A stretch of DNA of 64,000 nt from a virus. The stretch is taken from the IMG/VR virus record IMGVR_UViG_3300002307_000034, positions 1 to 64,000 of that record; one strand, given 5' to 3'. The position numbers and the translations under genes were made by a program. The notes below the pieces were generated by a model that worked only from the letters and a program-made list of their open reading frames with translations, was not told where the DNA came from and ran no database searches. This document shows positions 6,668 to 62,783 of this stretch, piece by piece (the first letter of the stretch is position 1; each line of letters starts with the position of its first letter).

Positions 6668-7375
6668 TTAAGAAAGTCTTCCGTTAATGGAAGGAGCAAA
6701 CGCTCCACCCCATACAGATTTCTTCATAGGCTTCTCTGTTCCCGCTTTTTCTTCTGCAGCTTCTTCAGCTGGAGTTTCCTTAGCTTCTTCAGCAGGAGTT
6801 TCCTTATCTTCGTCCTTAGCACCATCTGCTTTCGCCATTGGCATTGATTGACCACAATGTGGGCACTTCTCTGCTGCTGCTTTAGACATTCCGTCACACA
6901 TGCACATAGTCATAGGCTTGCCACAATCTGGGCAATCTGCTGCTTTTTCCATAGGTTCTGTTGTTTCTCCCTTTGAAGGAGCTTCTTCTGTGGTATTAGC
7001 TGTTGTACCAACATGCGTAGTAGGAATTTCTACTGACTTTGTAATTGCAATATTGCTTTGTGGATCTGGCTCTGTTGTTCCAGCTCCAGGTGTTTCGTAA
7101 GAGTTTTGTGTTGTTTCTGATGAATTAACATCTAATGTTTTTTCTGTCATTTTTGTTTCACCGCCATTCGTAAATAAATCTGCGTTAAACATTGATGCTA
7201 TATCAGAATTTTCTGATGTAATATTTTGTTTAACGTAATGCTCTAAATGATTATCACTTGTTTCAGTATGTGAACTACTGCTGGAAGAAAATGGAGAAAC
7301 AACGCCAGGATCTGACTTCCACGACTTTAAAATTTCTGCAGTTAATTTTACTACTTTATCGTAAATGCTCTCCAT
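6668..7375 (-). CDS. acidic low-complexity protein with CxxC pairs and C-terminal KKSVWGGAF; candidate internal head protein
   Basis: strong AGGAGG RBS; KETPAEEA repeat; motif shared with the scaffold. Confidence 0.6.
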   Translation of the reverse strand: MESIYDKVVKLTAEILKSWKSDPGVVSPFSSSSSSHTETSDNHLEHYVKQNITSENSDIASMFNADLFTNGGETKMTEKTLDVNSSETTQNSYETPGAGTTEPDPQSNIAITKSVEIPTTHVGTTANTTEEAPSKGETTEPMEKAADCPDCGKPMTMCMCDGMSKAAAEKCPHCGQSMPMAKADGAKDEDKETPAEEAKETPAEEAAEEKAGTEKPMKKSVWGGAFAPSINGRLS

Positions 7376-7389
7376 TTTTCCTCCTTTAA

Positions 7390-7638
7390 TTATGGGCGTG
7401 TTGCGTTTTCTACGCTGCCTTGTTCAGTTGAAACAATTGGTCCACCAAATGCTGCACCTGTAGTCATTGACTCATTTGCACCTGTTAGTGGGCTTTGTAC
7501 TGAAGCACCAACCATAGTCTTTGGCTCGTTAACGCCAAGGTTTGTAACTGAAGCTGAAGCACCGTGATCTGGTGCTGTTTGTGCTGTTACCTCTGGCTTG
7601 CCTGCTGCCTGAGATGGGGATTGTTGATTGTTATCCAT
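7390..7638 (-). CDS. hypothetical disordered protein
   Basis: AAGGAGGT RBS, upstream -10 box. Confidence 0.65.
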   Translation of the reverse strand: MDNNQQSPSQAAGKPEVTAQTAPDHGASASVTNLGVNEPKTMVGASVQSPLTGANESMTTGAAFGGPIVSTEQGSVENATRP

Positions 7639-7682
7639 AGTTTTACCTCCTTTATGGTAATTACATTATATCGCATAAATGA

Positions 7683-7994
7683 TTAATTTAAGAATGGATT
7701 TTCGGGCATATTTTTAAGAATTTTAGCACCTTTTTCCGTAACCTTAAATTTAGCATTTAATTCTTCATCATATTCTATTTCAATCATATCTTGTTCATAA
7801 AGAGCCATCAAATCACGATCAATTTCTTCTGTTATTTCTTCATATAATGGTGGAAATATGTCTTTAAGCTTTTCTAGGTTAAATCTAAACATAGGCTCAC
7901 CATCATCTCCAAGCCCAACCCAACTCAAAGCACCCTGTTCTTCAAGCCAACCAATCATTTGGTCATCATTTTCAAAATTAGGAAAATCAGACAT
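7683..7994 (-). CDS. hypothetical protein
   Basis: AAGGAGG RBS. Confidence 0.65.
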   Translation of the reverse strand: MSDFPNFENDDQMIGWLEEQGALSWVGLGDDGEPMFRFNLEKLKDIFPPLYEEITEEIDRDLMALYEQDMIEIEYDEELNAKFKVTEKGAKILKNMPENPFLN

Positions 7995-8005
7995 ATAACC
8001 TCCTT

Positions 8006-8896
8006 TTACTTCAAAGCATTTACTAAATTAATACCGATTACATTTTGTTTAACCATAATATTTGTATATAAAGAACCGGTTAATTTAATTGTATTGTAGA
8101 TTTCTTTATAAGACAAGTTTTTAGCATTTGCAATTTTTAGCCATCCCGCTCCAAATACACCTACAGATAATGATGTTCCTGAATCTATTTTTGTTTTATT
8201 ATCGTTAATTGCAACTATCATATTTCCATTTGCAGCAAAATCTACTCGAGGTGAGTAATCTGCATACAAAGCAAGTCTTCCCTTGTCATCAATTGAGCTG
8301 ATTGCAATTGAATTTGTTAAACATGCTGGGGAAGAAATATTTTTATAATTAAAATCATTACCTGTTGAAAAAATTGATGGAATTCCAATTGAATAAAGAT
8401 TATTGATAGCATTTTGTTGAGTTGCATCTGTATAGCATGATGTAGCATTAAATAATGATAGAGGAGAAACTACAGCTCCAATATTATATTTAGAAGCATT
8501 AGAATATGCCCAGTTCAAAGCTTGTCCCAAAAGATTACTGTTACAATTAATAAAACCATTTGCACCAATAAGTGATGCACAACGAATTTCAATAATTTTT
8601 ACATTTGGATCAGTTTGTATTGCTGATGAAGCAACTTCTGTTCCATGAATCCATGCTGGAAGTATTGCCATTGATGCATTAATACTTGCTGATCCCGTTC
8701 CTTCCATAAATGTTTTACCATTTGGGCAAGAATTATATCCAGCAAAACATACTTCATAAATAATATTATTTTTAATACTATTGTTAGTCATATCTACACC
8801 TGTATCAATGATAACCATTGTTTTAGGAGTTGCTGCATATGATGTGACAGGATAAAGTGATAACAAAGAAACTGCAATAACGATCAGCTTTTTCAT
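8006..8896 (-). CDS. secreted S8 (subtilisin-like) serine peptidase
   Basis: signal peptide; VIIDTG, HGT and SGTS catalytic triad motifs. Confidence 0.85.
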   Translation of the reverse strand: MKKLIVIAVSLLSLYPVTSYAATPKTMVIIDTGVDMTNNSIKNNIIYEVCFAGYNSCPNGKTFMEGTGSASINASMAILPAWIHGTEVASSAIQTDPNVKIIEIRCASLIGANGFINCNSNLLGQALNWAYSNASKYNIGAVVSPLSLFNATSCYTDATQQNAINNLYSIGIPSIFSTGNDFNYKNISSPACLTNSIAISSIDDKGRLALYADYSPRVDFAANGNMIVAINDNKTKIDSGTSLSVGVFGAGWLKIANAKNLSYKEIYNTIKLTGSLYTNIMVKQNVIGINLVNALK

Positions 8897-8927
8897 TTTA
8901 TTCTTTCTGTTAGTAGTTATTTGATTG

Positions 8928-8999
8928 TGCCCCTAGAAGGATTCGAACCTCCGACCAAACGGGTAGAAACCGTTGACTCTTCCTCTGAGTTATAGAGGC
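8928..8999 (-). tRNA. tRNA-Arg(UCU)
   Basis: cloverleaf; anticodon arm AACGG-TTTCTAC-CCGTT; GGTTCGAATCC T-arm. Confidence 0.9.
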
Positions 9000-9007
9000 A
9001 TGAGTAT

Positions 9008-9037
9008 ATTATACTGTTTTTATATTTGTGATGTCAA
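9008..9037 (-). promoter_or_regulatory. promoter for tRNA-Arg
   Basis: TTGACA-18 nt-TATAAT, 8 nt upstream of the tRNA. Confidence 0.8.
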
Positions 9038-9040
9038 GGA

Positions 9041-9484
9041 TTAAATTATAGATGATTTAATTGTTGAAGTTAATTGCCAATCCCATTTTTTATGCATGGA
9101 ATGTCTAATTTCAATATCGCTTGCAATACCAATTTCTTTTACTGCTTCTGCTGCTTCATGCACAGCTAACAAATCATTAATTACAGCTTCATTTGAAACC
9201 AAAAAGCTTTCAATCTGATCTTTTGGATTTGCTCCCGCATAAACTTGACCAATTGTTCTATTTGTTACAAAATCAGTTAATTGAAATGGAGCGGTTTGCC
9301 CAAGTTTTCTAATCATCTCAGAAATATCATCAATAGAATCATATACATCTTCATAAATTTCTAAAAATTTGGCATGCATTTCAGGAAATAGCATTCCCTC
9401 TACATTCCAATGATATCCGTGAATTTGAAAATAAGCAGTAACTACGTCTGCTTGTAAAATTTTAAGTCTTTGTACTAAATCCAT
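9041..9484 (-). CDS. dps: Dps-family ferritin-like protein
   Basis: HGYHWNVEG..F.EMH..F.E.Y......D.ISE ferroxidase motifs; H.K..W near the C-terminus. Confidence 0.9.
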   Translation of the reverse strand: MDLVQRLKILQADVVTAYFQIHGYHWNVEGMLFPEMHAKFLEIYEDVYDSIDDISEMIRKLGQTAPFQLTDFVTNRTIGQVYAGANPKDQIESFLVSNEAVINDLLAVHEAAEAVKEIGIASDIEIRHSMHKKWDWQLTSTIKSSII

Positions 9485-9527
9485 TGTAACTCCTTAGAAA
9501 GCTGATCTGCTATTTACTATTATACCA

Positions 9528-9752
9528 TTAATTGCTTGATTGGGATGGCTTTTCATTAATATAATGACGTTCATCCACAATTTCATATGCTTGACTATTT
9601 AATTTGTTTTGATTTTTATTATAATGGTGACCACAAAACATTAATTCGCCCGTCAATAATTTAACAGAAACAAAAGCCTGTGCTTGACATGAATCACAGC
9701 GATCTTGTAATGTTAAAATACGTTCTGTTGTTTTTTCTTGTTCAAGTATCAT
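9528..9752 (-). CDS. small actinobacterial-type zinc-binding protein
   Basis: LT..DRCDSC.AQA.V...GEL.FCGHH. Confidence 0.7.
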   Translation of the reverse strand: MILEQEKTTERILTLQDRCDSCQAQAFVSVKLLTGELMFCGHHYNKNQNKLNSQAYEIVDERHYINEKPSQSSN

Positions 9753-9791
9753 ACCTTAAGTATATCCCTTTATGTTAGTAGTTACAAGTTG

Positions 9792-9864
9792 TGTCCCCAG
9801 CAGGTCTCGATCCTGCGACCCGCAGATTAAAAGTCTGCTGCTCTACCAACTGAGCTATAGGGAC
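9792..9864 (-). tRNA. tRNA-Lys(UUU)
   Basis: cloverleaf; GCAGA-CTTTTAA-TCTGC. Confidence 0.92.
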
Positions 9865-9865
9865 A

Positions 9866-9996
9866 TGTCAGATCAGTTTATCTTTTACCACACTGTAAGG
9901 TCTATAACCGAGTGTTCTGACAACACCGTGTAGGTTGCTCTAGAAACCCCTACATATTAGCGTAAAGCCTAAACCATTGAAGGCCTATACTAATGT
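9866..9996 (-). ncRNA. candidate structured RNA 'C' between tRNA-Leu and tRNA-Lys
   Basis: three consecutive stem-loops (ATTAG/CTAAT, TGTAGG/CCTACA, TGTCAGA/TCTGACA) with nested helices; no credible ORF. Confidence 0.45.
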
Positions 9997-10003
9997 TACT
10001 ATG

Positions 10004-10076
10004 TGCCCCAAGTTGGATTCGAACCAACGCTGTATGGATTTTAAGTCCACTATCTCTACCACTGGATTACTGGGGC
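10004..10076 (-). tRNA. tRNA-Leu(UAA), short variable arm
   Basis: GTGGA-CTTAAAA-TCCAT; 5-nt variable loop; 73 nt. Confidence 0.9.
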
Positions 10077-10118
10077 CAGTACACGCCTGTTTTTTCTATA
10101 TGTATATATACAAAATTT

Positions 10119-10850
10119 TTAGATTTGCTTATAATCATTAGTTCCTCTATATACATTAAAAAATTCTTTTGTAAAAATTGGAATTTTATGCAACATGCCA
10201 ACTAGTTGCCAATAATTTTCATATACTTTTATTTGTGTTTCATATGCTTTTAAAGCATTAATTCTTTTATTTATTACTTCTGAAAAATCTATTTCTAAAT
10301 CTATTTTTTTATAAGCACTAACCCAAAATGGATCATTTTCCCATACAGGATTATTTTTTTGTTCAATAACCGTAAACCAAATATTGGGAATTTTATATAT
10401 AGAGTCTAAAATGTCTAACGAGGACATTGTTGCATTGTGAACAGTTATATGGTCTGGATGTCCGCTCCAACCATTTTGATCATATGTTATTAATAAATCT
10501 GGCTTAATTGATACTAAAATATCGGACAATTGTTTGGATAAAACTTCAATGCCTACAAATTTTAAAGATCCTTTAATTGGTACCCTGTTTGGAACCGTGT
10601 CATCATATGGACCAATAAATATATGTTTTGACACGCCCAAAGCTTCCATTGCTTTTGAATGTTCTTTTAATAATTTATTTTTAAATTCAATAGTACCAGC
10701 TGGGTAATCATCTAAATAACTATTTCCACTCATGCCATTAGAAAAATTTATAACAGTAACATCATGACCAAGATTTACAAATTTTGCAATAGTCCCGCCA
10801 GTTGTTATTGTTTCGTCATCTGGATGACAATGTACAAATACTACTTTCAT
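10119..10850 (-). CDS. PIG-L/LmbE-family deacetylase (MshB/Mca-like)
   Basis: VFVHCHPDDETITTGGTIA and TYD..G..GHPDH motifs. Confidence 0.85.
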   Translation of the reverse strand: MKVVFVHCHPDDETITTGGTIAKFVNLGHDVTVINFSNGMSGNSYLDDYPAGTIEFKNKLLKEHSKAMEALGVSKHIFIGPYDDTVPNRVPIKGSLKFVGIEVLSKQLSDILVSIKPDLLITYDQNGWSGHPDHITVHNATMSSLDILDSIYKIPNIWFTVIEQKNNPVWENDPFWVSAYKKIDLEIDFSEVINKRINALKAYETQIKVYENYWQLVGMLHKIPIFTKEFFNVYRGTNDYKQI

Positions 10851-10866
10851 TTTTCTCCTTAGTTTG

Positions 10867-10937
10867 CTCCCTGACCTGGATTCGAACCAAGATACCCGCC
10901 TCCAAAGGGCGGTGTCCTACCGTTAGACGATCTGGGA
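10867..10937 (-). tRNA. tRNA-Gln(UUG)
   Basis: CCGCC-CTTTGGA-GGCGG; one acceptor-stem mismatch. Confidence 0.88.
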
Positions 10938-10944
10938 ATGTAAG

Positions 10945-11018
10945 CGATCCGTATCGGACTTGAACCGACGGCCTTTGCCGTGACAGGGCAACGCTCTAAC
11001 CAACTGAGCTAACGGACC
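10945..11018 (-). tRNA. tRNA-Asp(GUC)
   Basis: TTGCC-CTGTCAC-GGCAA. Confidence 0.92.
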
Positions 11019-11019
11019 A

Positions 11020-11096
11020 TGGTGGAACAGGTAGGACTTGAACCTACGATTACCGAATTATGAGTTCGGGGCTTTGACCAACTAAGCTACTGTTCC
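11020..11096 (-). tRNA. tRNA with CAU anticodon (Ile2-like or elongator Met), CCA encoded
   Basis: CCGAA-CTCATAA-TTCGG; G1-C72 paired and no three G-C pairs in the anticodon stem, so not initiator. Confidence 0.88.
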
Positions 11097-11097
11097 G

Positions 11098-11172
11098 TAC
11101 TCCAAGAAGGACTTGAACCTTCAGCCTTCAGTATATAAGACTGATGCTCTCACCAAGTTGAGCTATTGGAGC
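11098..11172 (-). tRNA. tRNA-Ile(UAU)
   Basis: TCAGT-CTTATAT-ACTGA; full cloverleaf; A73 discriminator. Confidence 0.85.
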
Positions 11173-11174
11173 AA

Positions 11175-11338
11175 GTGCTAGCCATGGATTTAGGATTCAA
11201 ACCTTAAACCTCCCGCTAGCTGTTGTACCTAGTTCTCGCTTTATCCTATTATCCCTGGGTCTGAACACTTTCATAATAGTGCTGGAACATTGTCGGATTC
11301 GGTACAACTATCTCCATATAAGTTGTTCAGACTTATAT
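11175..11338 (-). ncRNA. candidate structured RNA 'B' (pseudoknot plus tRNA-like 3' minihelix)
   Basis: 8-bp hairpin whose loop CUGAACA is complementary to a downstream UGUUCAG; GUUGUACC/GGUACAAC helix; GCUAGC-closed arm with GG-UUUGAAU-CC loop. Confidence 0.6.
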
Positions 11339-11344
11339 TTTGAG

Positions 11345-11417
11345 CTGGGATGACAGGGATCGAACCTGTGACATTTCGATTAACAGTCGAACGCTCTGCC
11401 AGCTGAGCTACATCCCA
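11345..11417 (-). tRNA. tRNA-Asn(GUU)
   Basis: TTCGA-CTGTTAA-TCGAA. Confidence 0.92.
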
Positions 11418-11422
11418 AAAAG

Positions 11423-11540
11423 GTACGACAAGCAATTCCATCTGCACAGGCGTTGAGGTCTATTGCACCACAAACGCTTTAGCCGAGTATGTTTATATGT
11501 AACTATAACATCATCCTAAGATTAGTGTTGCTTGCCGTAC
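11423..11540 (-). ncRNA. candidate structured RNA 'A' (~118 nt, multi-way junction)
   Basis: 13-bp closing stem GUACGGCAAGCAA/UUGCUUGUCGUAC starting at the predicted TSS; two internal arms; followed by a short U run. Confidence 0.6.
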
Positions 11541-11546
11541 TGTATT

Positions 11547-11576
11547 AGTATATCAGGCGGTTATTTACAATGTCAA
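11547..11576 (-). promoter_or_regulatory. promoter of the ncRNA/tRNA array
   Basis: TTGACA-18 nt-TATACT. Confidence 0.8.
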
Positions 11577-11999
11577 TTACTTGATCTTGATTGTTTTTGG
11601 CTTTTTATCCTCTGGAACAATTCTTTCAATTGTTACAGCAAGCATACCATTTTCAAATTCAGCACCAGTAACTTCCATATATTCACCTAGTGCAAATGAA
11701 CGAGTAAAAGAACGAGTAGCGATTCCTTTATGTTTAAAATCTGCTTCTTGTTTTTCTTTTTCACCCTTTACAATTAAATTTTTATTATCTACTGATACTG
11801 TAAGGTCGGATCTATTAAATCCCGCCAAGGCAATTTCAACAAGATATGTATCTTCATCTTGTTTAATTACATTGTATGGTGGATAATTATCCTGTTGTGA
11901 TGATTGGCTCCATGTTGTAATATTAGGTTGAAAACCAATAAAAAATGGGTCATTTAGAAGTGAATTCCAAAGCCCATTGTATGTGTATGTTGTATTCAT
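11577..11999 (-). CDS. small heat-shock protein (Hsp20/IbpA family)
   Basis: YPPYNV...EIALAGF...H.GIA.RSF.RSF.L...A.FENG.L; start moved to the ATG at 11999, behind AAGGAG. Confidence 0.93.
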   Translation of the reverse strand: MNTTYTYNGLWNSLLNDPFFIGFQPNITTWSQSSQQDNYPPYNVIKQDEDTYLVEIALAGFNRSDLTVSVDNKNLIVKGEKEKQEADFKHKGIATRSFTRSFALGEYMEVTGAEFENGMLAVTIERIVPEDKKPKTIKIK

Positions 12000-12056
12000 A
12001 CTATTCTCCTTTTCTTTAAGCAAGTTAGTTTAATTTAGATCCCCGAAGGCAATCTT
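12000..12056 (-). promoter_or_regulatory. ROSE-like RNA thermometer candidate in the hsp20 5' UTR
   Basis: 5' hairpin with UUCG loop, then CUUGCUU pairing with SD AAGGAG with a bulged G. Confidence 0.55.
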
Positions 12057-12078
12057 TATATATTATATCACAAATTGG

Positions 12079-13269
12079 TTAGTCTGTCCAGCACCATACA
12101 TTAATATCTGAATAACCAGCATCAATTATTTTCTTTTTAAGATCTTCATATATATTCCATGAAAATATAACTATGTCTGTAGGATTACATTCAAGCATTT
12201 TTTCTAAACTTACAACAGGTATTTGTGCATCAGGAATGTACCTGCCCTGTTTTTCAAAAGAATCATCTGCTATATATTTTATATCATTAAAATTTAATTT
12301 TGAAAAATTAATAACAGTTGATGCTTTGCCAGAGGCTGCGTATCCACAAATAATTTTTCCTTCATTATTAAGATTTTTAATTTTGTTATAAAAATTTGTT
12401 ATTTTATGATTAATTCGATCACTAAATTCATTCCATTTAGATTCACTTAACAAGCCACCATTTATTTCTTCATTAATTGTTTTTTCTACGCTTGAAAGCC
12501 TATTCTTTGTCCTAGAAATTAAATATCTATTACTTCCTCCATGCATTTGATATTCTTTAACATCAAATACATGCATTCCAAATTTACTTACAAGTTTAGA
12601 TACTGCATTTGTTGAAAGATATGAATAATGTTCATGATAAATGTTATCAAAATGATCATCATTTAAAATATGCATTATTGTTGGATTTTCAATACTTACA
12701 ATTGTTTCATCATTAGAAAGAATTGAAATTCCATTCATAAAATCTTGAATATTTGGCACATGAGCAAAAACATTTTTTGCAACTATAAGTTTAGGATAGC
12801 CTTTAATTCTTAAAATTTCTTTAGCAAGTTCTGATCCAAAAAAATCATTTATAGTAGGAATACCATCGCATATTGCATACATTGATATATTTTTGGCGGG
12901 ATCAACTCCCAAAACATCTATATTTTCTTTTTGAAACATTTTTAAAAGATAACCATCGTTACTTGCTAATTCTAAAACCCAATCTTTTTCTCCAAAACTT
13001 ATTTTAGATAAACATTCATTTACAAATTCTTTAGAATGTTTTAAAAATGTTTCACTGTATGATGTTCTAAACCCGTAAAAACTAAATAATCTAGAGGGAT
13101 CTAGGTCCAATGAAATTTGACCTAACCCGCAATCTGAGCAAACCATCATTTTTGTTTCAAATGTTTCAGCTTTGTGATTTTTATCTTTAGATAATTCATT
13201 AACAATTGGTAAAGAACCTAAATCAATGCCAGTAAATTGCTTTTGACTGTTACACGCACGACATGCCAT
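12079..13269 (-). CDS. NDP-hexose C-methyltransferase (class I SAM-dependent, Zn-binding N-terminus)
   Basis: CRAC...CSDC, VLELASNDG, NVFAHVP, IYHEH.SY, HGGS.R, GYAASGKA; likely start MACRAC. Confidence 0.88.
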   Translation of the reverse strand: MACRACNSQKQFTGIDLGSLPIVNELSKDKNHKAETFETKMMVCSDCGLGQISLDLDPSRLFSFYGFRTSYSETFLKHSKEFVNECLSKISFGEKDWVLELASNDGYLLKMFQKENIDVLGVDPAKNISMYAICDGIPTINDFFGSELAKEILRIKGYPKLIVAKNVFAHVPNIQDFMNGISILSNDETIVSIENPTIMHILNDDHFDNIYHEHYSYLSTNAVSKLVSKFGMHVFDVKEYQMHGGSNRYLISRTKNRLSSVEKTINEEINGGLLSESKWNEFSDRINHKITNFYNKIKNLNNEGKIICGYAASGKASTVINFSKLNFNDIKYIADDSFEKQGRYIPDAQIPVVSLEKMLECNPTDIVIFSWNIYEDLKKKIIDAGYSDINVWCWTD

Positions 13270-13297
13270 AAATATCTCTTTTCTTGTATAGATATAC

Positions 13298-13321
13298 AAT
13301 TATATCATAAATGATATAATT
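13298..13321. promoter_or_regulatory. palindromic back-to-back TGATATAAT boxes (divergent promoter)
   Basis: aattatatcat-aa-atgatataatt between the divergent genes. Confidence 0.65.
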
Positions 13322-13335
13322 ATTTTAGAGGATTT

Positions 13336-14250
13336 ATGAGAGATTACGATTATAATTATGAATTTAATTCATTTAATAAAAAAACAGAGCTTTTGAGTAA
13401 TTTGCCAATTTATGAAATATTTGATTTAAAATTAAATAAACATATTACAAATAAAACTGTTGTCCTTGATGAATTATGTTTTCCTATATCCATGTCAGTA
13501 AATTTTGCACATGCTTTATTTGATGGAATAGGAGCGTATTATCAATTAAAAAAAATATATCCTGATCTTATACCTATTTTTATAGATGAAACTAGAAAAC
13601 CAGGTTTAATTGAATATTTCAGTTTGCCTTTAAAAGAATTTGCTGAACAAAATAACTTTAAAATAATAAATTTAAACAAAAACAATTATATATTTAAAAA
13701 AGTTATCATTCATAATTATTACTTTTCAACTATTCCAATTTTAAATTTTAAAGATGAATTAATCCAAAATAATGATGATTTAAGACAAGTTAAATTTTAT
13801 CAAAATTCTATAAATGAAATTTTAAATAATATTAAATTTGAAAATAAACTTTCTAATAAAAAAATATATGTATCAAGAAGATTAGCTAATAAAGATAGGA
13901 AATATCATAAAAATCAAGCTTTTGCAAAACAATATACCTATGATAAAAAATATGATATAGAATTTGAAAATTTTTTTGAATCAAAAGGTTTTGAAATTAT
14001 AGATCTTGAAGGATATAATTTGTCTGAACAAATAAATTTATTCTCACAATGCAATGCTTTTGCTACCATTGAAGGCACTGCATTAATAAATAGCATTTGG
14101 ATGCCAAATAATTCTAAAATTTTATCAATTAAAATGTATGAAACTTATTTTCCATGGGATCATATAATAAATCAAAATGATAAAAAATATATAAAAACAT
14201 GCAATATTGAAAATTTAAATTTTTATCAAGATTTAAATAATTTTTTTTAA
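13336..14250 (+). CDS. glycosyltransferase family 61 (DUF563)
   Basis: NFAHALFD, KIYVSRR, GFEIIDLE...LSEQINLF, EGTALIN motifs; AGAGG RBS. Confidence 0.8.
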   Translation: MRDYDYNYEFNSFNKKTELLSNLPIYEIFDLKLNKHITNKTVVLDELCFPISMSVNFAHALFDGIGAYYQLKKIYPDLIPIFIDETRKPGLIEYFSLPLKEFAEQNNFKIINLNKNNYIFKKVIIHNYYFSTIPILNFKDELIQNNDDLRQVKFYQNSINEILNNIKFENKLSNKKIYVSRRLANKDRKYHKNQAFAKQYTYDKKYDIEFENFFESKGFEIIDLEGYNLSEQINLFSQCNAFATIEGTALINSIWMPNNSKILSIKMYETYFPWDHIINQNDKKYIKTCNIENLNFYQDLNNFF

Positions 14251-14270
14251 TTTAATTAATTATTTTAATT

Positions 14271-15041
14271 TTATCCTTTATAAGGTTTAGTGGTTTTATC
14301 TGGAACATTATTTCCTTCAGGAATTGATTGATTAGATGATCTATTTCCATATCCTGCACTTGGATTACCATCATTTTCATATGAAGCTTTTGATGGAAAA
14401 TAATATCTTGCATCTTGATCTTGTGAATTAAACTCTGGACCCATTTGTCCTTTATTTGATGGCACAAAAACACCATCCCAAATTGATTTTTTAATTGGTA
14501 CACAGTTTGGAACTGTTTTACCATCTTTATCTTTTGTGCCTACTTGCTTATAGCCATCCCAACATGGTCCCTGCCCTTTTGTAACACAATAAGAACATTT
14601 TTCAGTATCTGAAATATAGTGGTGATCATTACCTAAATCATCACATCCACATGTCATGCATTTATTAACCACATTATTCTCCTTATATTCTTCTGGAGTT
14701 TTAGCTGTTCTAACTTCATCTCCAAGTATGTCAATCTTTTCATTATTTAAACCTTTTAAAGCATCTTCAGCTTCAGCTTTTGTTAAATAACATCCTATTG
14801 ATTGTCCTGTTCCGCTTTTTGTTATTGCATATCCATGCTGACAATCCGGAGTTCCAAATTCAATTGCCCATCCATCTCCACCTGTAAAAATCATTTTTTT
14901 TGTAGCTTCAGGAACATTAGCATATAAAGCACCTAATTGAGCTTGTGCTTGTGCTTTAGATGGGTGGGTACCAACAACTCTTCCAGTAGCATCTACAACT
15001 ACTTTAAACTTATTACCTTCACGTTCAATATGGTACGGCAT
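14271..15041 (-). CDS. modular small-domain protein; candidate internal head protein
   Basis: two G-T/C-H/Y-x-S/T-K-A-x-A modules, a CWDGY...VPNCVP module and KKSIWDGVF. Confidence 0.65.
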   Translation of the reverse strand: MPYHIEREGNKFKVVVDATGRVVGTHPSKAQAQAQLGALYANVPEATKKMIFTGGDGWAIEFGTPDCQHGYAITKSGTGQSIGCYLTKAEAEDALKGLNNEKIDILGDEVRTAKTPEEYKENNVVNKCMTCGCDDLGNDHHYISDTEKCSYCVTKGQGPCWDGYKQVGTKDKDGKTVPNCVPIKKSIWDGVFVPSNKGQMGPEFNSQDQDARYYFPSKASYENDGNPSAGYGNRSSNQSIPEGNNVPDKTTKPYKG

Positions 15042-15056
15042 AGGTCTATTTTACCA

Positions 15057-15314: not shown

Positions 15315-15329
15315 AAACTAATTATATCA

Positions 15330-15632: not shown

Positions 15633-15633
15633 T

Positions 15634-26835: not shown

Positions 26836-26836
26836 T

Positions 26837-44302: not shown

Positions 44303-44330
44303 TAAATCACCACCTTCTATATTATATCAT

Positions 44331-55494: not shown

Positions 55495-55497
55495 TCA

Positions 55498-56117: not shown

Positions 56118-56167
56118 TTTGCTCCTTTAGGTCTAATCAAAATTATATCAAAATTTATAATAAAAAC

Positions 56168-56200
56168 ATAAACACCCCCCATAAAATGGGGGGCATTTAT
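56168..56200 (-). terminator. intrinsic terminator after the major tail gene
   Basis: CCCCCCAU/AUGGGGGG stem plus U tract on the minus strand. Confidence 0.8.
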
Positions 56201-56216
56201 TCACTATATTAAATTA

Positions 56217-56945: not shown

Positions 56946-57034
56946 TTATTTATTTCACCGCCTTATTTTTTATAAAATTGGGCTAAAATCTTTCCTCGTA
57001 TGTAAATAGTATCATAGGGAAAGAATAATGCCAA

Positions 57035-57541: not shown

Positions 57542-58263
57542 AATACGTATTCATCCTTTGAGTATTGTTTTAATAGATTGGTAACTGCACTTCTAATTTG
57601 TGCTGCTCCCGCACCTTTATTATTTAAAATTTTTGCAGTCTCTGAATCAATTGCTTGAAGTATTCCAGAAGAATTAATTATAGATTCAACTTTTGTTTGA
57701 AACCATGTATTAAAAAATTTTTCAAAAGATCCTTTAACTTGAATGCCACCTGGGTGTTGTATATTTATTAAGGTTCCAGCTGCTACAAAATTAACTTTTG
57801 ATCCATCTGGTATAGGAGTATTTTTAGAAGTTCTATAAATTATAGGGTTGCCTTTTTCCATAACAGAAGCTTTATCTTTAAAGATATTTTTTGAAGAAAC
57901 TATTTTACCATTTCTACCTGGCGTTAATAGTTGTGGAGCAATAGGAACATTTTTCTTTGATTGCATAAAACCTGGTTTTATAATTAATTTTCCATTTGAA
58001 GCTGATTCTTTGTATAAAAAGAATAATCTTTGTGAATTATTACCTGTAGCTCCCCATTCATAAATATGATGATATGCTTTAGGTTTTGCTTTTGCCTCAG
58101 TATTAATTGCTTTAATGAAAGCTTTACCACTTAATGTAAATATAGCATTTGCTAATTCCGTCAATACAGCTTTAGATTGAAGTTCTTTAATTCCGTTTAA
58201 TTTTAAATCAAGTTCTGATTCTATTTTTAAAATATCAAATTTATTTGCCGAGAGTGTTATCAT
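57538..58263 (-). CDS. neck / tail completion protein
   Basis: HHIYEW, F..KA.VME.G; position; likely start MITLS. Confidence 0.55.
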   Translation of the reverse strand: MITLSANKFDILKIESELDLKLNGIKELQSKAVLTELANAIFTLSGKAFIKAINTEAKAKPKAYHHIYEWGATGNNSQRLFFLYKESASNGKLIIKPGFMQSKKNVPIAPQLLTPGRNGKIVSSKNIFKDKASVMEKGNPIIYRTSKNTPIPDGSKVNFVAAGTLINIQHPGGIQVKGSFEKFFNTWFQTKVESIINSSGILQAIDSETAKILNNKGAGAAQIRSAVTNLLKQYSKDEYVL

Positions 58264-58690
58264 TTTGTATATGTACCCTTTGCAACGTGATTTCATAATA
58301 TGAAACTTTACCAAATGGATCTAGCACAGCATGAGATGACATTACGTCAAATATAGTATCTGGCATATCAAATTTATCAATTTCAAAATAAACTTGTTTT
58401 CCATCATTTGATTTTATACCTGAGACTCTCCATCTTTTTGAAAATGGGGTTAGGCATTTCATTTTTAACTGAAGCTTTTCATCATATTCATTATGTTTGC
58501 CAATATCAAATCTTTTATTATCTGCTCTATTTGAAGCACCACTAGATTTGATTGGTTCTATCTTACAAGGAATAGTTCTATCATAAACCCATTCTCTTAC
58601 AATAGTCCCGCTTTCAGATGATTGTTTATTTTGCTGAACTAAGACATCAGCAGACATGTTCATGATACTACCAATGAATGAGTTAGGCAT
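58241..58690 (-). CDS. head-closure (stopper) protein
   Basis: Q....G...REW....TI.C, DPFG; position. Confidence 0.65.
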   Translation of the reverse strand: MPNSFIGSIMNMSADVLVQQNKQSSESGTIVREWVYDRTIPCKIEPIKSSGASNRADNKRFDIGKHNEYDEKLQLKMKCLTPFSKRWRVSGIKSNDGKQVYFEIDKFDMPDTIFDVMSSHAVLDPFGKVSYYEITLQRVHIQNDNTLGK

Positions 58691-59631
58691 TAAATAATCA
58701 CAATCCCAACTGTGCGGTAATTATCAAGAATATTATCAACAATCAAATCACCAGTTCCGCTAAATGCTCCACCATCAAGTTCAAATGAAATTTCAGAAAG
58801 ATTAACTTTTTTAAGATATCTTTCTCTCCACTCAGCGTCTCTTGACAATAAGTTCCCAACTAGTCTTATTGCACAAAATTTAACATCGTTTGGAACATAT
58901 GTCCAACCAATTTCTCCATAAACTTTATACCTTGAATGCTCTCTAAATCTTCCACCGTAAAGTGTTGTTACATCCATTTGTCCATCATATTCAGGATTAT
59001 ATGAATCTCTTACAATTCTTAAAGCTTTATTGGTTGTAGAAAGTTCAATATCTGAACCAAATGTGTTATATACTGGATCTTGAGTATAATCAATAATTAA
59101 AACGCCATCTTCATATAATTTTTCAACGCTTATCATTCTTTGCAAAAGCTCCATTTGATTAGAACCATATCCAAATTGTTCTTGATCTCCCCAGGCTCTT
59201 CCAAATGTTTGACTTGTGTAACTTTCAATTTGATAACGTGCAAGACGTTCTGCATAAACTATTTCATCATGGCTTTTGTAATTTAAATCTTGTGGACGTG
59301 TTCCAAAGTTATAATAATCTATTATATCGCTTGCATAAGCGTATGGAGTAAATACTTCATAAAAATCTTCAGAAGATATGGCTTTACCATTTACTGTGTA
59401 ATCCCATTGAAGTCTTAATACACGGTTTAAGTTAGTATATTCTGGATCTAAATCAAATGTATATTTGCCAATAGCGGGGTCATTAAAAGCAACCCCGCCA
59501 GTGCCAACTGGGGTACCATAATTTGCATCAGTAACAGAAACTAAAACGTCTCCATCTGCGTTAGCAAGTTCTCCTCTAACGTAGATTTCAAATTCTGCAT
59601 TTTCAGTTGTTCCTCTAACTATTTGATGCAT
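58690..59631 (-). CDS. head-to-tail adaptor
   Basis: AR..IESYT.Q.F, GW..VP.DV..CA..L, TG...VD.IL..Y. Confidence 0.75.
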   Translation of the reverse strand: MHQIVRGTTENAEFEIYVRGELANADGDVLVSVTDANYGTPVGTGGVAFNDPAIGKYTFDLDPEYTNLNRVLRLQWDYTVNGKAISSEDFYEVFTPYAYASDIIDYYNFGTRPQDLNYKSHDEIVYAERLARYQIESYTSQTFGRAWGDQEQFGYGSNQMELLQRMISVEKLYEDGVLIIDYTQDPVYNTFGSDIELSTTNKALRIVRDSYNPEYDGQMDVTTLYGGRFREHSRYKVYGEIGWTYVPNDVKFCAIRLVGNLLSRDAEWRERYLKKVNLSEISFELDGGAFSGTGDLIVDNILDNYRTVGIVII

Positions 59632-59645
59632 TTATTACCCCCTAT

Positions 59646-60032
59646 TTAATTATAAAACTCTTGTGCCTCTCTTGGGGTTGCTGGGCGAAAGCCTGGCTCT
59701 GTATCAAAGATACGCTGTGCGTCATCTTCAGACATAGCCACAAATGGATGCTGTTGTGTAAACGTATATCCATAAACAGTATATGATGGATTAGCTTTAT
59801 CCATTCTTACCAAGATAGTATTTGCCTTATTAAGATTAATTTTCTTTTCAGGCTTTGGTTCATCTAGCTCAACCTTATCTGCACCGCTAAATTGTGCATA
59901 AGCATCAAATGTGATGCCTTCTTCTGCTAGGGCTGAAATTATAGCTTGCTTTGAAGGTTTTTCTGGAACATCTACTCCAAAACCTTCTGCAATTTTTTTA
60001 AGTTCTGAGATCTTCAATGTGTTAAATGACAT
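59646..60032 (-). CDS. hypothetical virion-associated protein with Rho-N/HeH-like N-terminus
   Basis: LKISELKKIA..FG.....K..II; follows the capsid gene. Confidence 0.55.
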   Translation of the reverse strand: MSFNTLKISELKKIAEGFGVDVPEKPSKQAIISALAEEGITFDAYAQFSGADKVELDEPKPEKKINLNKANTILVRMDKANPSYTVYGYTFTQQHPFVAMSEDDAQRIFDTEPGFRPATPREAQEFYN

Positions 60033-60081
60033 AGTAATCCTTTCATCTCAAGTAAATTATACCATTTGTATTAATAAAAGT

Positions 60082-60116
60082 ATAAGGGGGAAGATAATTA
60101 AATCTTCCCCGCTTAT
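60082..60116 (-). terminator. intrinsic terminator after the capsid gene
   Basis: ggggaagat-aattaa-atcttcccc plus U-rich tail. Confidence 0.8.
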
Positions 60117-60135
60117 TTGCACCTTAAAGGTTATA

Positions 60136-61299
60136 TTAGAATGTGCCTCTTGCGTGTGTCACTGGGTTTGATACCAATGAACCGTGAGTTACAGATCCGA
60201 GTGTACCGAGATCAGTACCTCCAACCTTAACATTCTTTACGATAACGTGTGCGTCATAGTTCTCGAATGCACAGCCGACACGGATGAATAGTGTATATTC
60301 AATTGTGTCTTTCTTTGGCTGGAAGAGACGATAGACAACTACGTCACGCTTAATACCAACTATGAAGTTCTGTGGGAATGTCAAGTGGACATCTCCAAAG
60401 AGACCTGAAGAGTTGTTATAACCGCTTTCTCCATATGCCTTACCCGCTGAATCACGAGTTTCGTCCATAAGAGGAACGTTGATGACTGGAATGCCGAATG
60501 CAAATGGAGTTGTAGATCCTGGTCCGCCGTCGTTTGCGACAACATCACCACGAATAACGCCAGAAGCGATATCCCATGGATTTACTGATCCTGCATTAGC
60601 TGTCAAGTTGTATAGGTAATCTTGTACGAGGTTTGATCCTACGAAGAAGCGAAGCTGATTGCGACGCTGCTTGTACTTACGTGGCAAGGTTTTAATTGCT
60701 GTATTGAATACAGCCTTGTCCAACCCTTGTGCATTACCATCAACAACGTGTGCGTTGGCAATAGCTTGTGCACGGAATCCAGGGAATGCTGACATAAGTC
60801 CGCTTCCTGTACTTCCAACACCGTTGATAAGAGTATCTTCGATATCGTTACCAGCTTGAGTTGCCATCAAACGTGCAATATGATCTTCTAGGTCTGGACC
60901 CTCAAGGTTGTCTTCTAGTGCCTCAGCTGAGAGTTCCCAGTCGAGACGAAGCTTGCGAGTTGTCAAAGAGATCTTTGAGAATGTAGCTGCTGCAGTTGGA
61001 TAACCGCCGTCTTGTGGTCCGAAATTTGTAAAATCACGAGGATTCTCTTCGGATGCTACTGTCATTAATCTTTGTCCTACAGACACACGATCAATTTCTG
61101 TGGTGTTACTACGCATACGGATTGTACGTGCAGCTTTAGCGAGGATAGTCGCATCCCACATGTAGTCAAGGAAACGGTTGGCTTGATCTGGATAGAGAAG
61201 ACCTGTACCTGAAAGGGTACGACCATCGCCTGATAGATCAGAACCTGCTGTTCCGAGATTTGTTGTATCAATTACTTTTTGTAATAGTTCGTTGCTCAT
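60136..61299 (-). CDS. major capsid protein (HK97 fold)
   Basis: GLL.P.QA.RF, L.T.KL...ELS.E.LEDN.EG, NDIE...ING; biased high-expression codons. Confidence 0.92.
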   Translation of the reverse strand: MSNELLQKVIDTTNLGTAGSDLSGDGRTLSGTGLLYPDQANRFLDYMWDATILAKAARTIRMRSNTTEIDRVSVGQRLMTVASEENPRDFTNFGPQDGGYPTAAATFSKISLTTRKLRLDWELSAEALEDNLEGPDLEDHIARLMATQAGNDIEDTLINGVGSTGSGLMSAFPGFRAQAIANAHVVDGNAQGLDKAVFNTAIKTLPRKYKQRRNQLRFFVGSNLVQDYLYNLTANAGSVNPWDIASGVIRGDVVANDGGPGSTTPFAFGIPVINVPLMDETRDSAGKAYGESGYNNSSGLFGDVHLTFPQNFIVGIKRDVVVYRLFQPKKDTIEYTLFIRVGCAFENYDAHVIVKNVKVGGTDLGTLGSVTHGSLVSNPVTHARGTF

Positions 61300-61334
61300 T
61301 TATTTATTTCACCGCCTTTGTTTTTGTTGATTTT

Positions 61335-62783
61335 TTATAGGTCTTTGGTTCCGAGGAAGGATCCTTGCCAATCAAACTCCATATTTTTACGAAGTTTATT
61401 TTCCCTTGAGCTTTCTACTGCATCAAAGGACTTTTGTACCGCAGTATCACTTTCATAAGCTCCGAGTCTCTTTTCTAGGGACTCAAAACGCTTAAAGAAA
61501 TCAGCAATGTTATTTGTGATGTCTGTGAGTTCTTTCTTCATGCCTTCTACGGCACTCATGTATTCGGCTTTTGCTGCCTCTACTGACTCTACTGACTTTT
61601 TAATTGCTTCTGATGATTCTGCAGAATTCTTATTTAGTGCTTCACTAAAGAGGTCACGCATATCAGTCAACATCTTTGCAAAAGGTTCTGTTGCCCCTGC
61701 GTTGGTGACGGACTTCTCTACGCTTTCTTCTGCTGGAGCATCTGCTGCTGGAGCATCTGCTGGAGTTGCATCTGTTGGTGCGTCTTCTGCTGAAGTATCT
61801 GTTGAAACTGCTTCTGCTGCTTCTACAACCTCTTCGGCTGTTTCTGTTACCGCATCATTATTTGTTTCGTCTGCCATTTTATTACCTCCTTTACTGAGTG
61901 AAGCATCTGCATCACTCTTATTTATTTTTGTTCCATCATTGAACAAAACTTTTTTAGGATTTTGATCAGGGTATAAATTAATTGTAGAATTAGAATTTAC
62001 AACTCCTGCATCTCCATCTTGTGTTGTTGCTGCATGATCTGGACCTGGAGCATCATCTTTTTTAAAATAATTGTCTACAATTTTTTGTATTGCAACACCT
62101 TTTTCAATAGATGAACTTTCAATCCAACCTATGTTTTCCATAGTTGCATTGCATATAACACAATCTTTATTTTCTGATTTTGTAGTTGATGCAATTTGAT
62201 CATGCTTGCACCAAAATACATTTTCTATTTTTGTATCTGCAGCTAGACCTTTTACTATTGTACTTCCATCAATATTCTTTTGAATAGAGAAAATACTTGC
62301 TAGAGGGTTTGCTGGTGAGTCAACTAGTGACAATTCTTGTAAATCATATTCTTTAATTACTCTGCGATCTTCTTTGTCATCGCCAGGTTCCATAGATGCA
62401 TGAACAATATTTCCACCAATTGAAAATCCAGTCATTGTTCCATCTAAAACTTTTTCCCATGTATCTTGTGCACCTTTTGAAACATATGCTTGTACATAAA
62501 TTCCTTTATAGGTTTTACCTGATTCTTTATCAAAATAATCTTCTGGGTGAAATGAAAGAACTTTGCCAACAGCAATTGGAGCATGCATTTCACGGAGGTT
62601 ACCTCTAAAACGTGCAAATGCTCTTTCGCTTGCATCTGATGTTACAATGTCGCCATGACGATCAATGTTGTCTAATGTAGCGAATCCAGAAACAGTTCTT
62701 TTTTCCTTATCAACTTTTGAGATTGGAAAGGACATATTTAGATGCGAACTGCTATTGTTCCAGTGTACTTTTTGAATGTTCAT
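61335..62783 (-). CDS. prohead protease (HK97-type) fused to scaffold domain
   Basis: V.GFAT...DR.GD, REMH, GFSIGG, ELSLVD.PAN; acidic linker and coiled-coil C-terminal half. Confidence 0.9.
   Translation of the reverse strand: MNIQKVHWNNSSSHLNMSFPISKVDKEKRTVSGFATLDNIDRHGDIVTSDASERAFARFRGNLREMHAPIAVGKVLSFHPEDYFDKESGKTYKGIYVQAYVSKGAQDTWEKVLDGTMTGFSIGGNIVHASMEPGDDKEDRRVIKEYDLQELSLVDSPANPLASIFSIQKNIDGSTIVKGLAADTKIENVFWCKHDQIASTTKSENKDCVICNATMENIGWIESSSIEKGVAIQKIVDNYFKKDDAPGPDHAATTQDGDAGVVNSNSTINLYPDQNPKKVLFNDGTKINKSDADASLSKGGNKMADETNNDAVTETAEEVVEAAEAVSTDTSAEDAPTDATPADAPAADAPAEESVEKSVTNAGATEPFAKMLTDMRDLFSEALNKNSAESSEAIKKSVESVEAAKAEYMSAVEGMKKELTDITNNIADFFKRFESLEKRLGAYESDTAVQKSFDAVESSRENKLRKNMEFDWQGSFLGTKDL

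What the first reader, a model, noticed from the sequence alone, without database searches (positions are those of the whole stretch)
6698..61376. Shared W-x-G-x-F tag links the scaffold C-terminus to two distant unknown proteins: candidate capsid-targeting/cargo system
Seen: the protease-scaffold ends ...FDWQGSFLGTKDL (61356-61376). The 235-aa protein ends ...MKKSVWGGAFAPS (6698-6724). The 256-aa protein contains ...IKKSIWDGVFVPS (14466-14492); the latter two share KKS[VI]WxGxFxPS. All three are punctuated by hydrophobic-x-K-[S/A/G] sites (ITKS, MEKA, MSKA, MAKA, MKKS; ITKS, VTKG, IKKS; INKS, LSKG, VEKS, VQKS), and the capsid protein begins ...LLQK-V. Established: scaffold C-termini bind the capsid shell, and T4 internal proteins use a capsid-targeting sequence plus prohead-protease cleavage. 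Inference: accessory genes about 47-55 kb from the head operon carry a scaffold-like coat-binding tag, are packaged and are cut after Lys into small peptides. This would be a portable encapsidation signal.
Basis: partly seen in the sequence, partly recalled or inferred. Interest (0 to 1): 0.82.

Follow-up and report, generated by a model that had tools for sequence, protein, structure and literature searches.

The report
Scaffold-tail address tag on phage cargo proteins
A short peptide that ends this phage's capsid protease-scaffold is also carried by two unrelated modular proteins encoded about 50 kb away, so it is probably a portable address label that loads extra proteins into the virus head, though no experiment has tested this.

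Summary

**The genome.** The window is the first 64 kb of a 105-kb, 33% GC actinophage genome. It encodes WhiB, and its head genes are related to Streptomyces and Rhodococcus phages.

**The shared motif.**
- Of the 120 best protease-scaffold homologues, 116 end with W-x-G-x-F.
- Most of the more distant ones read K-S-I-W-x-G-x-F, exactly the motif of the two accessory proteins. This phage's own scaffold tail has drifted.
- Built from scaffolds alone, that motif is expected 0.003 times in this proteome. It occurs twice, only in the 235-aa and 256-aa proteins.

**Relatives.**
- All three relatives with enough sequence hold a tagged scaffold plus two or three tagged mosaic proteins.
- The tag sits on shuffled small modules.
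- One such module, a Tudor-like domain, is inserted in the scaffold polyprotein itself in other phages, flanked by Lys sites.
- Hydrophobic-x-Lys-(Ser/Ala/Gly) sites are enriched and conserved.

**Reading.** Most likely (about 0.55) this is a short linear motif that recruits cargo into proheads, followed by cleavage after Lys. Packaging, cleavage and the docking site are all inferred, not shown. Cleavage of the capsid protein's N-terminus is not supported.

**Earlier work.** The scan flagged the same tag on at least five other genomes. I found no paper describing it. It is a new variant of a known kind (T4 capsid-targeting sequence, HK97 protease tail, encapsulin cargo peptides).

The parts
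61335..62783 (-). Prohead protease fused to scaffold (482 aa). The AlphaFold2 model shows the protease at residues 20-165, a Cys-rich beta domain at 186-244, a disordered linker at 245-364, one long helix at 365-446 and a disordered tail at 447-482.
   Evidence: Pfam Peptidase_S78 (2.8e-8) and S78_2/XkdF (2e-7), and phrog_9427 head maturation protease (3e-116). AlphaFold2 model. The gene lies between portal and capsid genes.
61338..61376 (-). Scaffold C-terminal tail carrying W-Q-G-S-F-L-G (W472, G474, F476).
   Evidence: W-x-G-x-F is present in the last 30 residues of 116 of the 120 best homologues. More distant ones read K-S-I-W-Q-G-H/S-F-L-G. It is kept in Streptomyces phages Circinus and Tomas, and as F-x-G-x-F in Rhodococcus phage Trina.
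61428..61442 (-). A-V-Q-K-S (residues 448-452), the best-conserved candidate protease site in the scaffold tail.
   Evidence: K451 and S452 are invariant and position -2 is hydrophobic in 100% of 120 aligned homologues.
60136..61299 (-). Major capsid protein (387 aa), the presumed receptor of the tag.
   Evidence: Pfam Phage_capsid (7e-6) and phrog_1623 (2.9e-77). The N-terminus M-S-N-E-L-L-x-K-V-I is conserved in Streptomyces phage capsid proteins.
62836..63999 (-). Portal protein, C-terminal part (the ORF runs off the window end).
   Evidence: phrog_12 portal protein, 1.4e-48.
6668..7375 (-). 235-aa acidic (pI 4.65), mostly low-complexity protein with two small Cys knuckles and the C-terminal tag.
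   Evidence: ORF. Five orthologues have the sites and tag conserved, and one has an in-frame extra knuckle unit. Pfam gives only weak zinc-ribbon hits and a weak Lar-like phrog hit. pI.
6689..6727 (-). Tag of the 235-aa protein: M-K-K-S-V-W-G-G-A-F-A-P-S, residues 217-229.
   Evidence: The identical core is found in 5 IMG/VR orthologues.
6621..6646 (-). Terminator-like hairpin (11-bp stem, 7 G-C pairs, then a T-rich run) just after the 235-aa gene.
14271..15041 (-). 256-aa bead-on-string protein. It has two beta-beta-beta-alpha modules (3-49, 58-98), a Cys/His-rich stretch, a C-W-x-G-Y...V-P-N-C-V-P hairpin (164-182), the tag, and a conserved disordered tail.
   Evidence: ORF. AlphaFold2 model with pLDDT about 90 for the two modules and under 50 for the tag and tail. 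Module shuffling is seen in homologues.
14457..14495 (-). Tag of the 256-aa protein: I-K-K-S-I-W-D-G-V-F-V-P-S, residues 183-195.
   Evidence: Conserved in 27 protein clusters that have different upstream modules.
14274..14456 (-). Conserved tail of about 60 residues that travels with the tag (the 'long tag' module).
   Evidence: A search with residues 181-256 alone finds 27 clusters (E from 1e-38 to 5e-6). The tail is always about 43-65 residues from the C-terminus, behind varying modules.

Best explanation
The peptide K-S-(I/V/F)-W-x-G-x-F is a short linear motif in a disordered segment. It is the conserved end of the XkdF/S78 protease-scaffold of a large actinophage lineage. By analogy with other scaffolds and with the HK97 protease tail, it should hold the scaffold against the inner face of the assembling capsid shell.

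In the low-GC aquatic branch of this lineage, the same motif has been copied onto 2-3 accessory proteins per genome. Here these are the 235-aa and 256-aa proteins. They are strings of tiny modules: beta-beta-beta-alpha units, Cys knuckles, a C-W-x-G-Y hairpin, a phrog_2859 domain and Tudor-like domains.

Proposed mechanism:
1. The tag docks these proteins in the prohead alongside the scaffold.
2. The co-packaged protease cuts scaffold and cargo after Lys at hydrophobic-x-Lys-(Ser/Ala/Gly and sometimes other) junctions.
3. The freed mini-domains and acidic peptides either stay in the head and enter the host with the DNA, or leave like scaffold fragments.

Shown here: the motif identity, its conservation and portability, the site enrichment, and the fusion of a cargo-type module inside the scaffold in other phages.
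Inferred: the binding partner, encapsidation, cleavage, and what the cargo does.
For: 1. Same motif. 116 of the 120 best scaffold homologues end with W-x-G-x-F. The 45-70% identical ones read K-(I/L)-x-K-S-I-W-Q-G-(H/S)-F-L-G. About 60 distinct accessory tags read K-x-K-S-(I/F)-W-(D)-G-(V/I)-F-x-P. Cultured Streptomyces phages keep the tail at 39-48% identity.
2. Not chance. The motif is expected 0.003 times and seen twice, with 0 of 2000 shuffles reaching that. Ten of 11 IMG/VR DNA-pattern hits are in frame in ORFs, and 8 of the 10 lie near a C-terminus.
3. Co-occurrence. All three relatives with enough sequence hold a tagged scaffold plus two or three tagged accessory ORFs.
4. Portability. 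The tag, or the tag plus its tail, follows different module sets in different orders. Some proteins have two tags, and some end one residue after the Phe.
5. No wider homology. The 235-aa protein and the scaffold share nothing but the motif.
6. Fusion evidence. Protease-scaffold variants (P0074, P0077, P0078, P0112, P0118) carry a Tudor-like domain in the linker. Pfam PF11160 is on record for P0077, P0078 and P0112, and the same segment is visible by eye in P0074 and P0118. It is flanked by I-K-K then S/A/G/D upstream and x-x-K then S/G downstream. The same domain sits in the tagged mosaic proteins of L003 and L004.
7. Lys sites. These are conserved in the otherwise variable scaffold linker, at own residues 289, 298, 357, 451 and 466. 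They are enriched in the tagged proteins. This includes an independent test on the 463-aa protein of L003 (P = 0.0004).
8. Architecture. The tag lies in predicted disorder after an 80-residue helix, as in classical scaffolds, and in disorder in the 256-aa protein.
Against: - No virion proteome, no cleavage map and no complex model exist. The receptor for the tag is unknown.
- The lineage of the accessory proteins has no cultured member in the phage collection.
- Streptomyces phage Circinus has the scaffold tail but no tagged accessory ORF. The tail therefore works without cargo, and the cargo use is clade-specific.
- In many proteins the tag is internal, with 40-130 residues after it.
- After the Phe, scaffolds read L-G but accessory tags read x-P, so the two classes might bind differently.
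- The Lys-site pattern was defined post hoc on these proteins. Several tagged proteins show no enrichment, and some sites lie inside folded modules.
Confidence: 0.55

Rival explanations
1. The motif is a docking or recognition element for another prohead component, not the capsid protein. Candidates are the protease domain (substrate recruitment), the scaffold's own Cys-rich domain, or the portal. The accessory proteins would still be prohead-associated substrates, but the tag would not be a coat-binding peptide.
For: A Lys-Ser junction sits directly before the Trp in most scaffolds and accessory tags, as expected of a substrate. The protease is fused in cis to the scaffold. The tag can be internal and repeated, which suits a substrate motif.
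Against: The AlphaFold2 monomer model, built with 66 homologues, leaves the tail undocked and at low confidence. This phage's own scaffold has lost the Lys-Ser before the Trp but keeps W, G and F. In known systems the scaffold C-terminus is the coat-binding end (established knowledge for P22 gp8, phi29 gp7 and 80alpha scaffold).
Confidence: 0.2
2. The motif serves a capsid-independent purpose common to the scaffold and to these disordered proteins. Examples are recognition by a host or phage chaperone or protease that controls their stability, or self-association. The accessory proteins would act in the cytoplasm.
For: The accessory genes lie 46-54 kb from the head genes, among metabolic and stress genes: WhiB, Hsp20, Dps-like and a subtilase. 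Nothing shows they are in virions. Their modules have no known fold or function.
Against: The only shared partner that explains a scaffold's extreme C-terminus being conserved from aquatic phages to Streptomyces phages is the head itself. A cargo-type module is fused inside the scaffold polyprotein in other phages. Lys-site enrichment is shared with the scaffold linker.
Confidence: 0.15
3. The resemblance has no function. It would be a relic of recombination that moved a scaffold 3' end onto other genes, or convergence in low-complexity sequence.
For: These genomes shuffle modules freely.
Against: W, G and F are near-invariant while the flanks vary, across about 60 distinct accessory tags and 66 distinct scaffold tails. 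The motif is kept in every orthologue seen. W-x-G-x-F occurs 46 times, against 7 for the reversed control, in 50 related loci.
Confidence: 0.05

Closest known systems
T4 capsid targeting sequence (CTS) of internal proteins IPI-III and Alt, cut by prohead protease gp21 (Mullaney and Black 1996, cited in PMC12991175; reviews PMC9026906, PMC9958956)
   Same: A short peptide shared by unrelated accessory proteins is thought to direct them into the prohead. The genes lie away from the head operon, and the prohead protease processes them at a simple hydrophobic-x-charged site.
   Different: The CTS is N-terminal, is not the scaffold's own coat-binding end, and targets the scaffolding core. The T4 sites are Leu/Ile-x-Glu, not x-Lys. 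The protease is of another family, and there is no sequence similarity.
C-terminal targeting tail of the HK97 maturation protease gp4 (Duda, Oh and Hendrix 2013, J Mol Biol 425:2765; title seen in the reference list of PMC12749128, content from my own knowledge)
   Same: It belongs to the same broad protease class. A C-terminal tail carries the protein into the prohead and can, by my recollection, carry foreign proteins.
   Different: In HK97 the scaffold is the capsid protein's own delta domain, and no natural accessory cargo shares the tail. Here the tail ends a fused scaffold and is naturally reused by other genes.
Encapsulin cargo-loading peptides
   Same: Short peptides, usually C-terminal and in disordered linkers, are shared by diverse cargo and bind the inner face of an HK97-fold shell. 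They allow cargo to be predicted from sequence.
   Different: The consensus is different (Gly/Ser/Leu-rich, no Trp-x-Gly-x-Phe). Encapsulins are bacterial compartments without scaffold, protease or DNA. No homology is shown.
Scaffolding proteins with C-terminal coat-binding ends (P22 gp8, phi29 gp7, 80alpha scaffold)
   Same: They combine a long helix with a flexible C-terminal element that contacts the coat protein. The P22 element is used to load engineered cargo.
   Different: Those elements are helix-turn-helix or helical hooks, not a conserved 8-residue linear motif. Natural reuse by other phage genes is not known to me.
Ejection/inner-body proteins of phiKZ-like and SPN3US phages (PMC7411985, PMC10052503)
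   Same: Many head-internal proteins are cut by the prohead protease at a simple motif and enter the host.
   Different: Targeting relies on propeptides with no single shared tag, and the cleavage motif ends in Glu. These are jumbo myoviruses of Gram-negative hosts.

Membership tests
Caudovirus prohead serine protease (Pfam S78 / XkdF type) fused to scaffold | Sequence match to the protease family above the curated cut-off | tested here: met
   PF04586 scored 34.5 bits (cut-off 21), PF14550 scored 31.5 bits (cut-off 24), and phrog_9427 gave 3e-116.
Caudovirus prohead serine protease (Pfam S78 / XkdF type) fused to scaffold | Gene placed between portal and major capsid protein genes | tested here: met
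   Portal 62836-63999, protease-scaffold 61335-62783 and capsid 60136-61299, all on the minus strand.
Caudovirus prohead serine protease (Pfam S78 / XkdF type) fused to scaffold | Scaffold-like C-terminal half (long helix, acidic, disordered ends) | tested here: met
   The AlphaFold2 model has a helix at 365-446, a disordered 245-364 and a disordered 447-482. The pI of residues 245-482 is 4.37.
Caudovirus prohead serine protease (Pfam S78 / XkdF type) fused to scaffold | Catalytic His/Ser residues and proteolytic activity | not tested
   Invariant His and Ser residues exist in the alignment, but I did not map them to a solved active site.
T4-type capsid targeting sequence system | N-terminal targeting peptide removed at Leu/Ile-x-Glu | tested here: not met
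   The tag is C-terminal or internal, and the candidate sites end in Lys.
T4-type capsid targeting sequence system | Tagged proteins found inside proheads and virions | not testable with these tools
   No proteome of any member phage is available. No cultured phage carries the accessory proteins.
Encapsulin cargo-loading peptide | Short peptide in a disordered end, shared by unrelated cargo proteins | tested here: met
Encapsulin cargo-loading peptide | Binding to a pocket on the inner face of the HK97-fold shell | not testable with these tools
   Only single-chain folding was on hand. No solved relative of the capsid protein or scaffold was found by sequence.
Encapsulin cargo-loading peptide | Encapsulin-type consensus and an encapsulin shell gene | tested here: not met
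   The shell is a phage capsid protein in a portal-protease-capsid operon. The motif is Trp-x-Gly-x-Phe.
Lar-like restriction alleviation protein (phrog_6422) | Significant full-length match | tested here: inconclusive
   The 235-aa protein matches only over residues 144-206, the Cys knuckles, at E = 5.7e-5. The Pfam zinc-ribbon hits are all below cut-off.

The most novel reading that the evidence does not exclude
Tailed phages of a very abundant actinophage lineage use a natural cargo-loading peptide that can be read from sequence: their scaffold's own coat-binding tail. This is the phage counterpart of encapsulin cargo peptides. It loads sets of shuffled mini-domains into the head, where a Lys-directed prohead protease releases them for delivery into the host. 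If so, the injected protein repertoire of thousands of uncultured phages could be listed from sequence alone, and the 8-residue tag would be a ready-made tool for loading capsids.
Probability: 0.45. Interest if true: 0.8.

Novelty: new variant of a known kind. Interest (0 to 1): 0.66.

Why it matters
How accessory proteins are chosen for packaging into phage heads is known in only a few model phages, and each uses a different signal. Here the signal would be an 8-residue motif identical to the scaffold's tail.

That makes three things directly testable:
- what the scaffold tail binds;
- whether natural cargo competes with the scaffold for the same site;
- what these tiny shuffled domains do after entering the host (anti-defence or takeover functions are the obvious guess).

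The protease-scaffold family is very large: more than 7,900 database clusters at E below 1e-10. It includes cultivable Streptomyces phages, so the scaffold part of the idea can be tested at the bench now.

Tried and rejected
- **Cultured-phage search.** tblastn of the 235-aa protein found nothing. The 256-aa protein hit only through its C-W-x-G-Y...V-P-N-C-V-P hairpin, in Synechococcus phages B3/B23 and actinophage DSL-LC01. Those proteins lack the tag, so they say nothing about it.
- **Streptomyces phage Circinus, whole genome.** Only the scaffold carries the motif in a credible place.
- **Solved structures by sequence.** No relatives of the capsid protein or the protease-scaffold.
- **Fold searches of the 256-aa model.** Foldseek gave no match with E at or below 0.001. 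The best VIA Z was 5.8 on a generic small beta-beta-beta-alpha unit. Weak resemblances to HVO_2922 and to anti-CRISPR proteins are within noise.
- **Long proteins carrying the hairpin module.** Pfam gave nothing and PHROGs gave unknown-function families, except for one fusion to a 'virion structural protein' family.
- **AlphaFold2 monomer of the protease-scaffold.** The tail is not docked on the protease. This is no decisive evidence either way.
- **BLASTP of the 235-aa protein against the scaffold.** No similarity beyond the motif.
- **Promoter scan.** Extended -10 boxes precede both head and accessory genes and give no timing information.
- **Literature.** Searches found no description of this motif. 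The HK97 protease paper (PMC3709472) is not held.
- **Capsid N-terminus.** The whole N-terminus is conserved as far as Streptomyces phages, which fits a structural role as well.

Full report
**What the window is**

The window is the first 64 kb of a single 104,950-bp contig with 33% G+C. It encodes a WhiB-like factor. Its head genes are most like those of Streptomyces phages of the Stanwilliamsviridae and Rhodococcus phage Trina, at 39-55% identity over the protease. It is therefore a large actinophage of a low-GC, mostly metagenomic aquatic clade. At the right end lie portal (62836-63999), protease-scaffold (61335-62783) and major capsid protein (60136-61299), all on the minus strand.

**Checking the observation**

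- The 235-aa protein (6668-7375) has the tag eight residues before its stop.
- The 256-aa protein (14271-15041) has the tag at residues 183-195, with 61 residues after it.
- The protease-scaffold ends with the tag six residues before its stop.

Across the whole genome, W-x-G-x-F occurs four times in real ORFs against 1.1 expected. The fourth is an unrelated W-C-G-S-F in a 183-aa ORF at 19976-20527.

**The key result**

I fetched homologues of the protease-scaffold. There are more than 7,900 clusters below E = 1e-10. Of the 120 best, 116 carry W-x-G-x-F in their last 30 residues. In most of those that are 45-70% identical, the tail reads K-(I/L)-x-K-S-I-W-Q-G-(H/S)-F-L-G-x-x-x-(L/I). That is the full motif of the two accessory proteins, K-K-S-(V/I)-W-x-G-x-F.

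- Circinus and Tomas end with K-W-G-G-(R/H)-F-L.
- Rhodococcus phage Trina ends with K-F-Q-G-L-F.

Taking the motif from scaffolds alone (K-[ST]-[IVLF]-W-x-G-x-F), it is expected 0.003 times in this proteome. It occurs twice, only in the two accessory proteins. None of 2000 shuffles gave two or more.

**Conservation and portability**

A degenerate DNA pattern for the accessory motif found 11 places in IMG/VR. Ten are in frame in ORFs, and 8 of those 10 lie near a C-terminus. They comprise:
- five orthologues of the 235-aa protein;
- two orthologues of the 256-aa protein;
- two other mosaic proteins (a 463-aa ORF in L003 and a 274-aa ORF in L004/L008).

Scanning the whole records of five relatives showed that each one with enough sequence has a tagged scaffold plus two or three tagged accessory ORFs.

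A search with residues 181-256 of the 256-aa protein alone found 27 clusters. In these, the tag plus a conserved tail follows different combinations and orders of four small modules. An exhaustive HMMER search and 50 further loci added more variants:
- proteins with two tags;
- tags ending one residue after the Phe;
- tags followed by long acidic tails.

In those 50 loci, W-x-G-x-F occurs 46 times against 7 for the reversed control. The 235-aa protein shares nothing with the scaffold except the motif.

**Evidence linking the accessory proteins to the head**

1. In several protease-scaffold homologues (P0074, P0077, P0078, P0112, P0118), a Tudor-like domain is inserted in the disordered linker between protease and scaffold helix. 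Pfam PF11160 is on record for three of them, and the same segment is visible in the other two. It is flanked by I-K-K then S/A/G/D upstream and by x-x-K then S/G downstream. The same domain occurs in the tagged mosaic proteins of L003 and L004. So a cargo-type module rides either inside the scaffold polyprotein or on a separately tagged protein.
2. Hydrophobic-x-Lys-(Ser/Ala/Gly) sites are conserved in the otherwise variable scaffold linker and tail, at own residues 289, 298, 357, 451 and 466. A-V-x-K-S at 448-452 is invariant.
3. The three tagged proteins rank first, second and third of 160 ORFs for such sites. They exceed their own shuffles, as does the independent 463-aa protein of L003 (P = 0.0004). 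The protease domain, the capsid protein and several other tagged proteins do not.
4. AlphaFold2 places the scaffold tag in a disordered tail behind an 80-residue helix. It places the tag of the 256-aa protein in disorder after folded mini-modules. This is the setting of a short linear motif.

**What this does not show**

- No tool here could fold a complex, and no proteome exists. Binding to the capsid protein, presence in virions and cleavage after Lys are therefore inferences.
- The monomer model does not dock the tail on the protease, which is only weak evidence against a protease-docking role.
- Circinus has the scaffold tail but no tagged accessory gene. Cargo use is thus a speciality of the aquatic clade.
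- Scaffold tails continue L-G after the Phe, whereas accessory tags continue x-P.
- Two of the four Lys sites in the 256-aa protein lie inside a confidently folded module.
- The capsid protein's N-terminal L-L-Q-K-V does not fit the site rule. It is conserved as far as Streptomyces phages, which fits a structural role equally well.

**The cargo itself**

- The 235-aa protein is acidic (pI 4.65) and low in complexity. It has two Cys knuckles, and one orthologue has an extra in-frame knuckle unit bounded by M-x-K-A.
- The 256-aa protein has two beta-beta-beta-alpha modules, a Cys/His stretch and a small hairpin.
- No fold or family search gave a function.
- A weak Lar-like hit covers only the knuckles.

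What the modules do is open. Anti-defence or takeover roles after injection are a guess by analogy with T4 IPI and the P1 Dar proteins.

**Comparison with known systems**

The system works like the T4 capsid targeting sequence, like the C-terminal tail of the HK97 protease and like encapsulin cargo peptides, but it is a member of none.
- The T4 signal is N-terminal and its sites end in Glu.
- HK97 has no natural cargo sharing the tail.
- Encapsulin peptides have another consensus and no phage context.

I found no paper describing this motif.

Earlier notes of this scan flagged the same tag and bead-on-string proteins on at least five other genomes. One follow-up reached the same reading. Those are unverified AI notes on related DNA, not independent evidence.

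**Verdict**

- It is a new variant of a known kind, of real interest to phage assembly research.
- It can be tested with multimer modelling, heterologous procapsids and the cultivable Streptomyces relatives.

Noticed in passing
window 5565-13299 and 13336-14250: The accessory region between the two tagged genes holds an unusual set for a phage: a WhiB-like factor (5565-5885), a secreted subtilase (8006-8896), a Dps/ferritin-like protein (9041-9484), a PIG-L deacetylase (10119-10850), Hsp20 (11577-12023), a sugar C-methyltransferase (12079-13299) and a GT61 glycosyltransferase on the plus strand (13336-14250).
   Followed up: partly
window 61335-62783, residues 186-244: The protease-scaffold has a small beta domain with invariant Cys192, Cys208 and Cys211 between the protease and the linker. 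It looks like a zinc ribbon and its role is unknown.
   Followed up: no
window 15048, 15320 and 62795 regions (upstream of the ATGs at 15041, 15314 and 62783): Extended -10 boxes of the form T-G-n-T-A-n-A-A-T end only 6-10 nt before the start codons of the 256-aa gene, the 85-aa gene upstream of it and the protease-scaffold gene. This suggests leaderless or near-leaderless transcripts, as is common in Actinobacteria.
   Followed up: partly
L002 (Actinomycetia phage DSL-LC01) 2980-4023: A protein with the C-W-x-G-Y...V-P-N-C-V-P hairpin but no tag lies directly after the portal and a 466-aa gene, and before a gene of more than 3000 codons. This is a head-internal or ejection-protein type of neighbourhood for the same module.
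   Followed up: no
L001 (Synechococcus phage B23) 958-2088: The same hairpin module occurs in a 376-aa protein encoded between two genes annotated as terminase, downstream of a T4-like gp15 tail completion gene, in a cyanophage. The module therefore reaches well beyond actinophages.
   Followed up: no
L004 9107-10301: Two tagged genes sit side by side and overlap by 8 nt. The second (125 aa) carries a variant tag, K-K-L-W-K-G-S-A-F, with one extra residue between Gly and Phe.
   Followed up: no
window 7390-7638: An 82-aa Ser/Thr/Ala/Gly-rich ORF with a good ribosome-binding site lies directly upstream of the 235-aa gene and is probably co-transcribed with it. It has no family match and no tag.
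   Followed up: no
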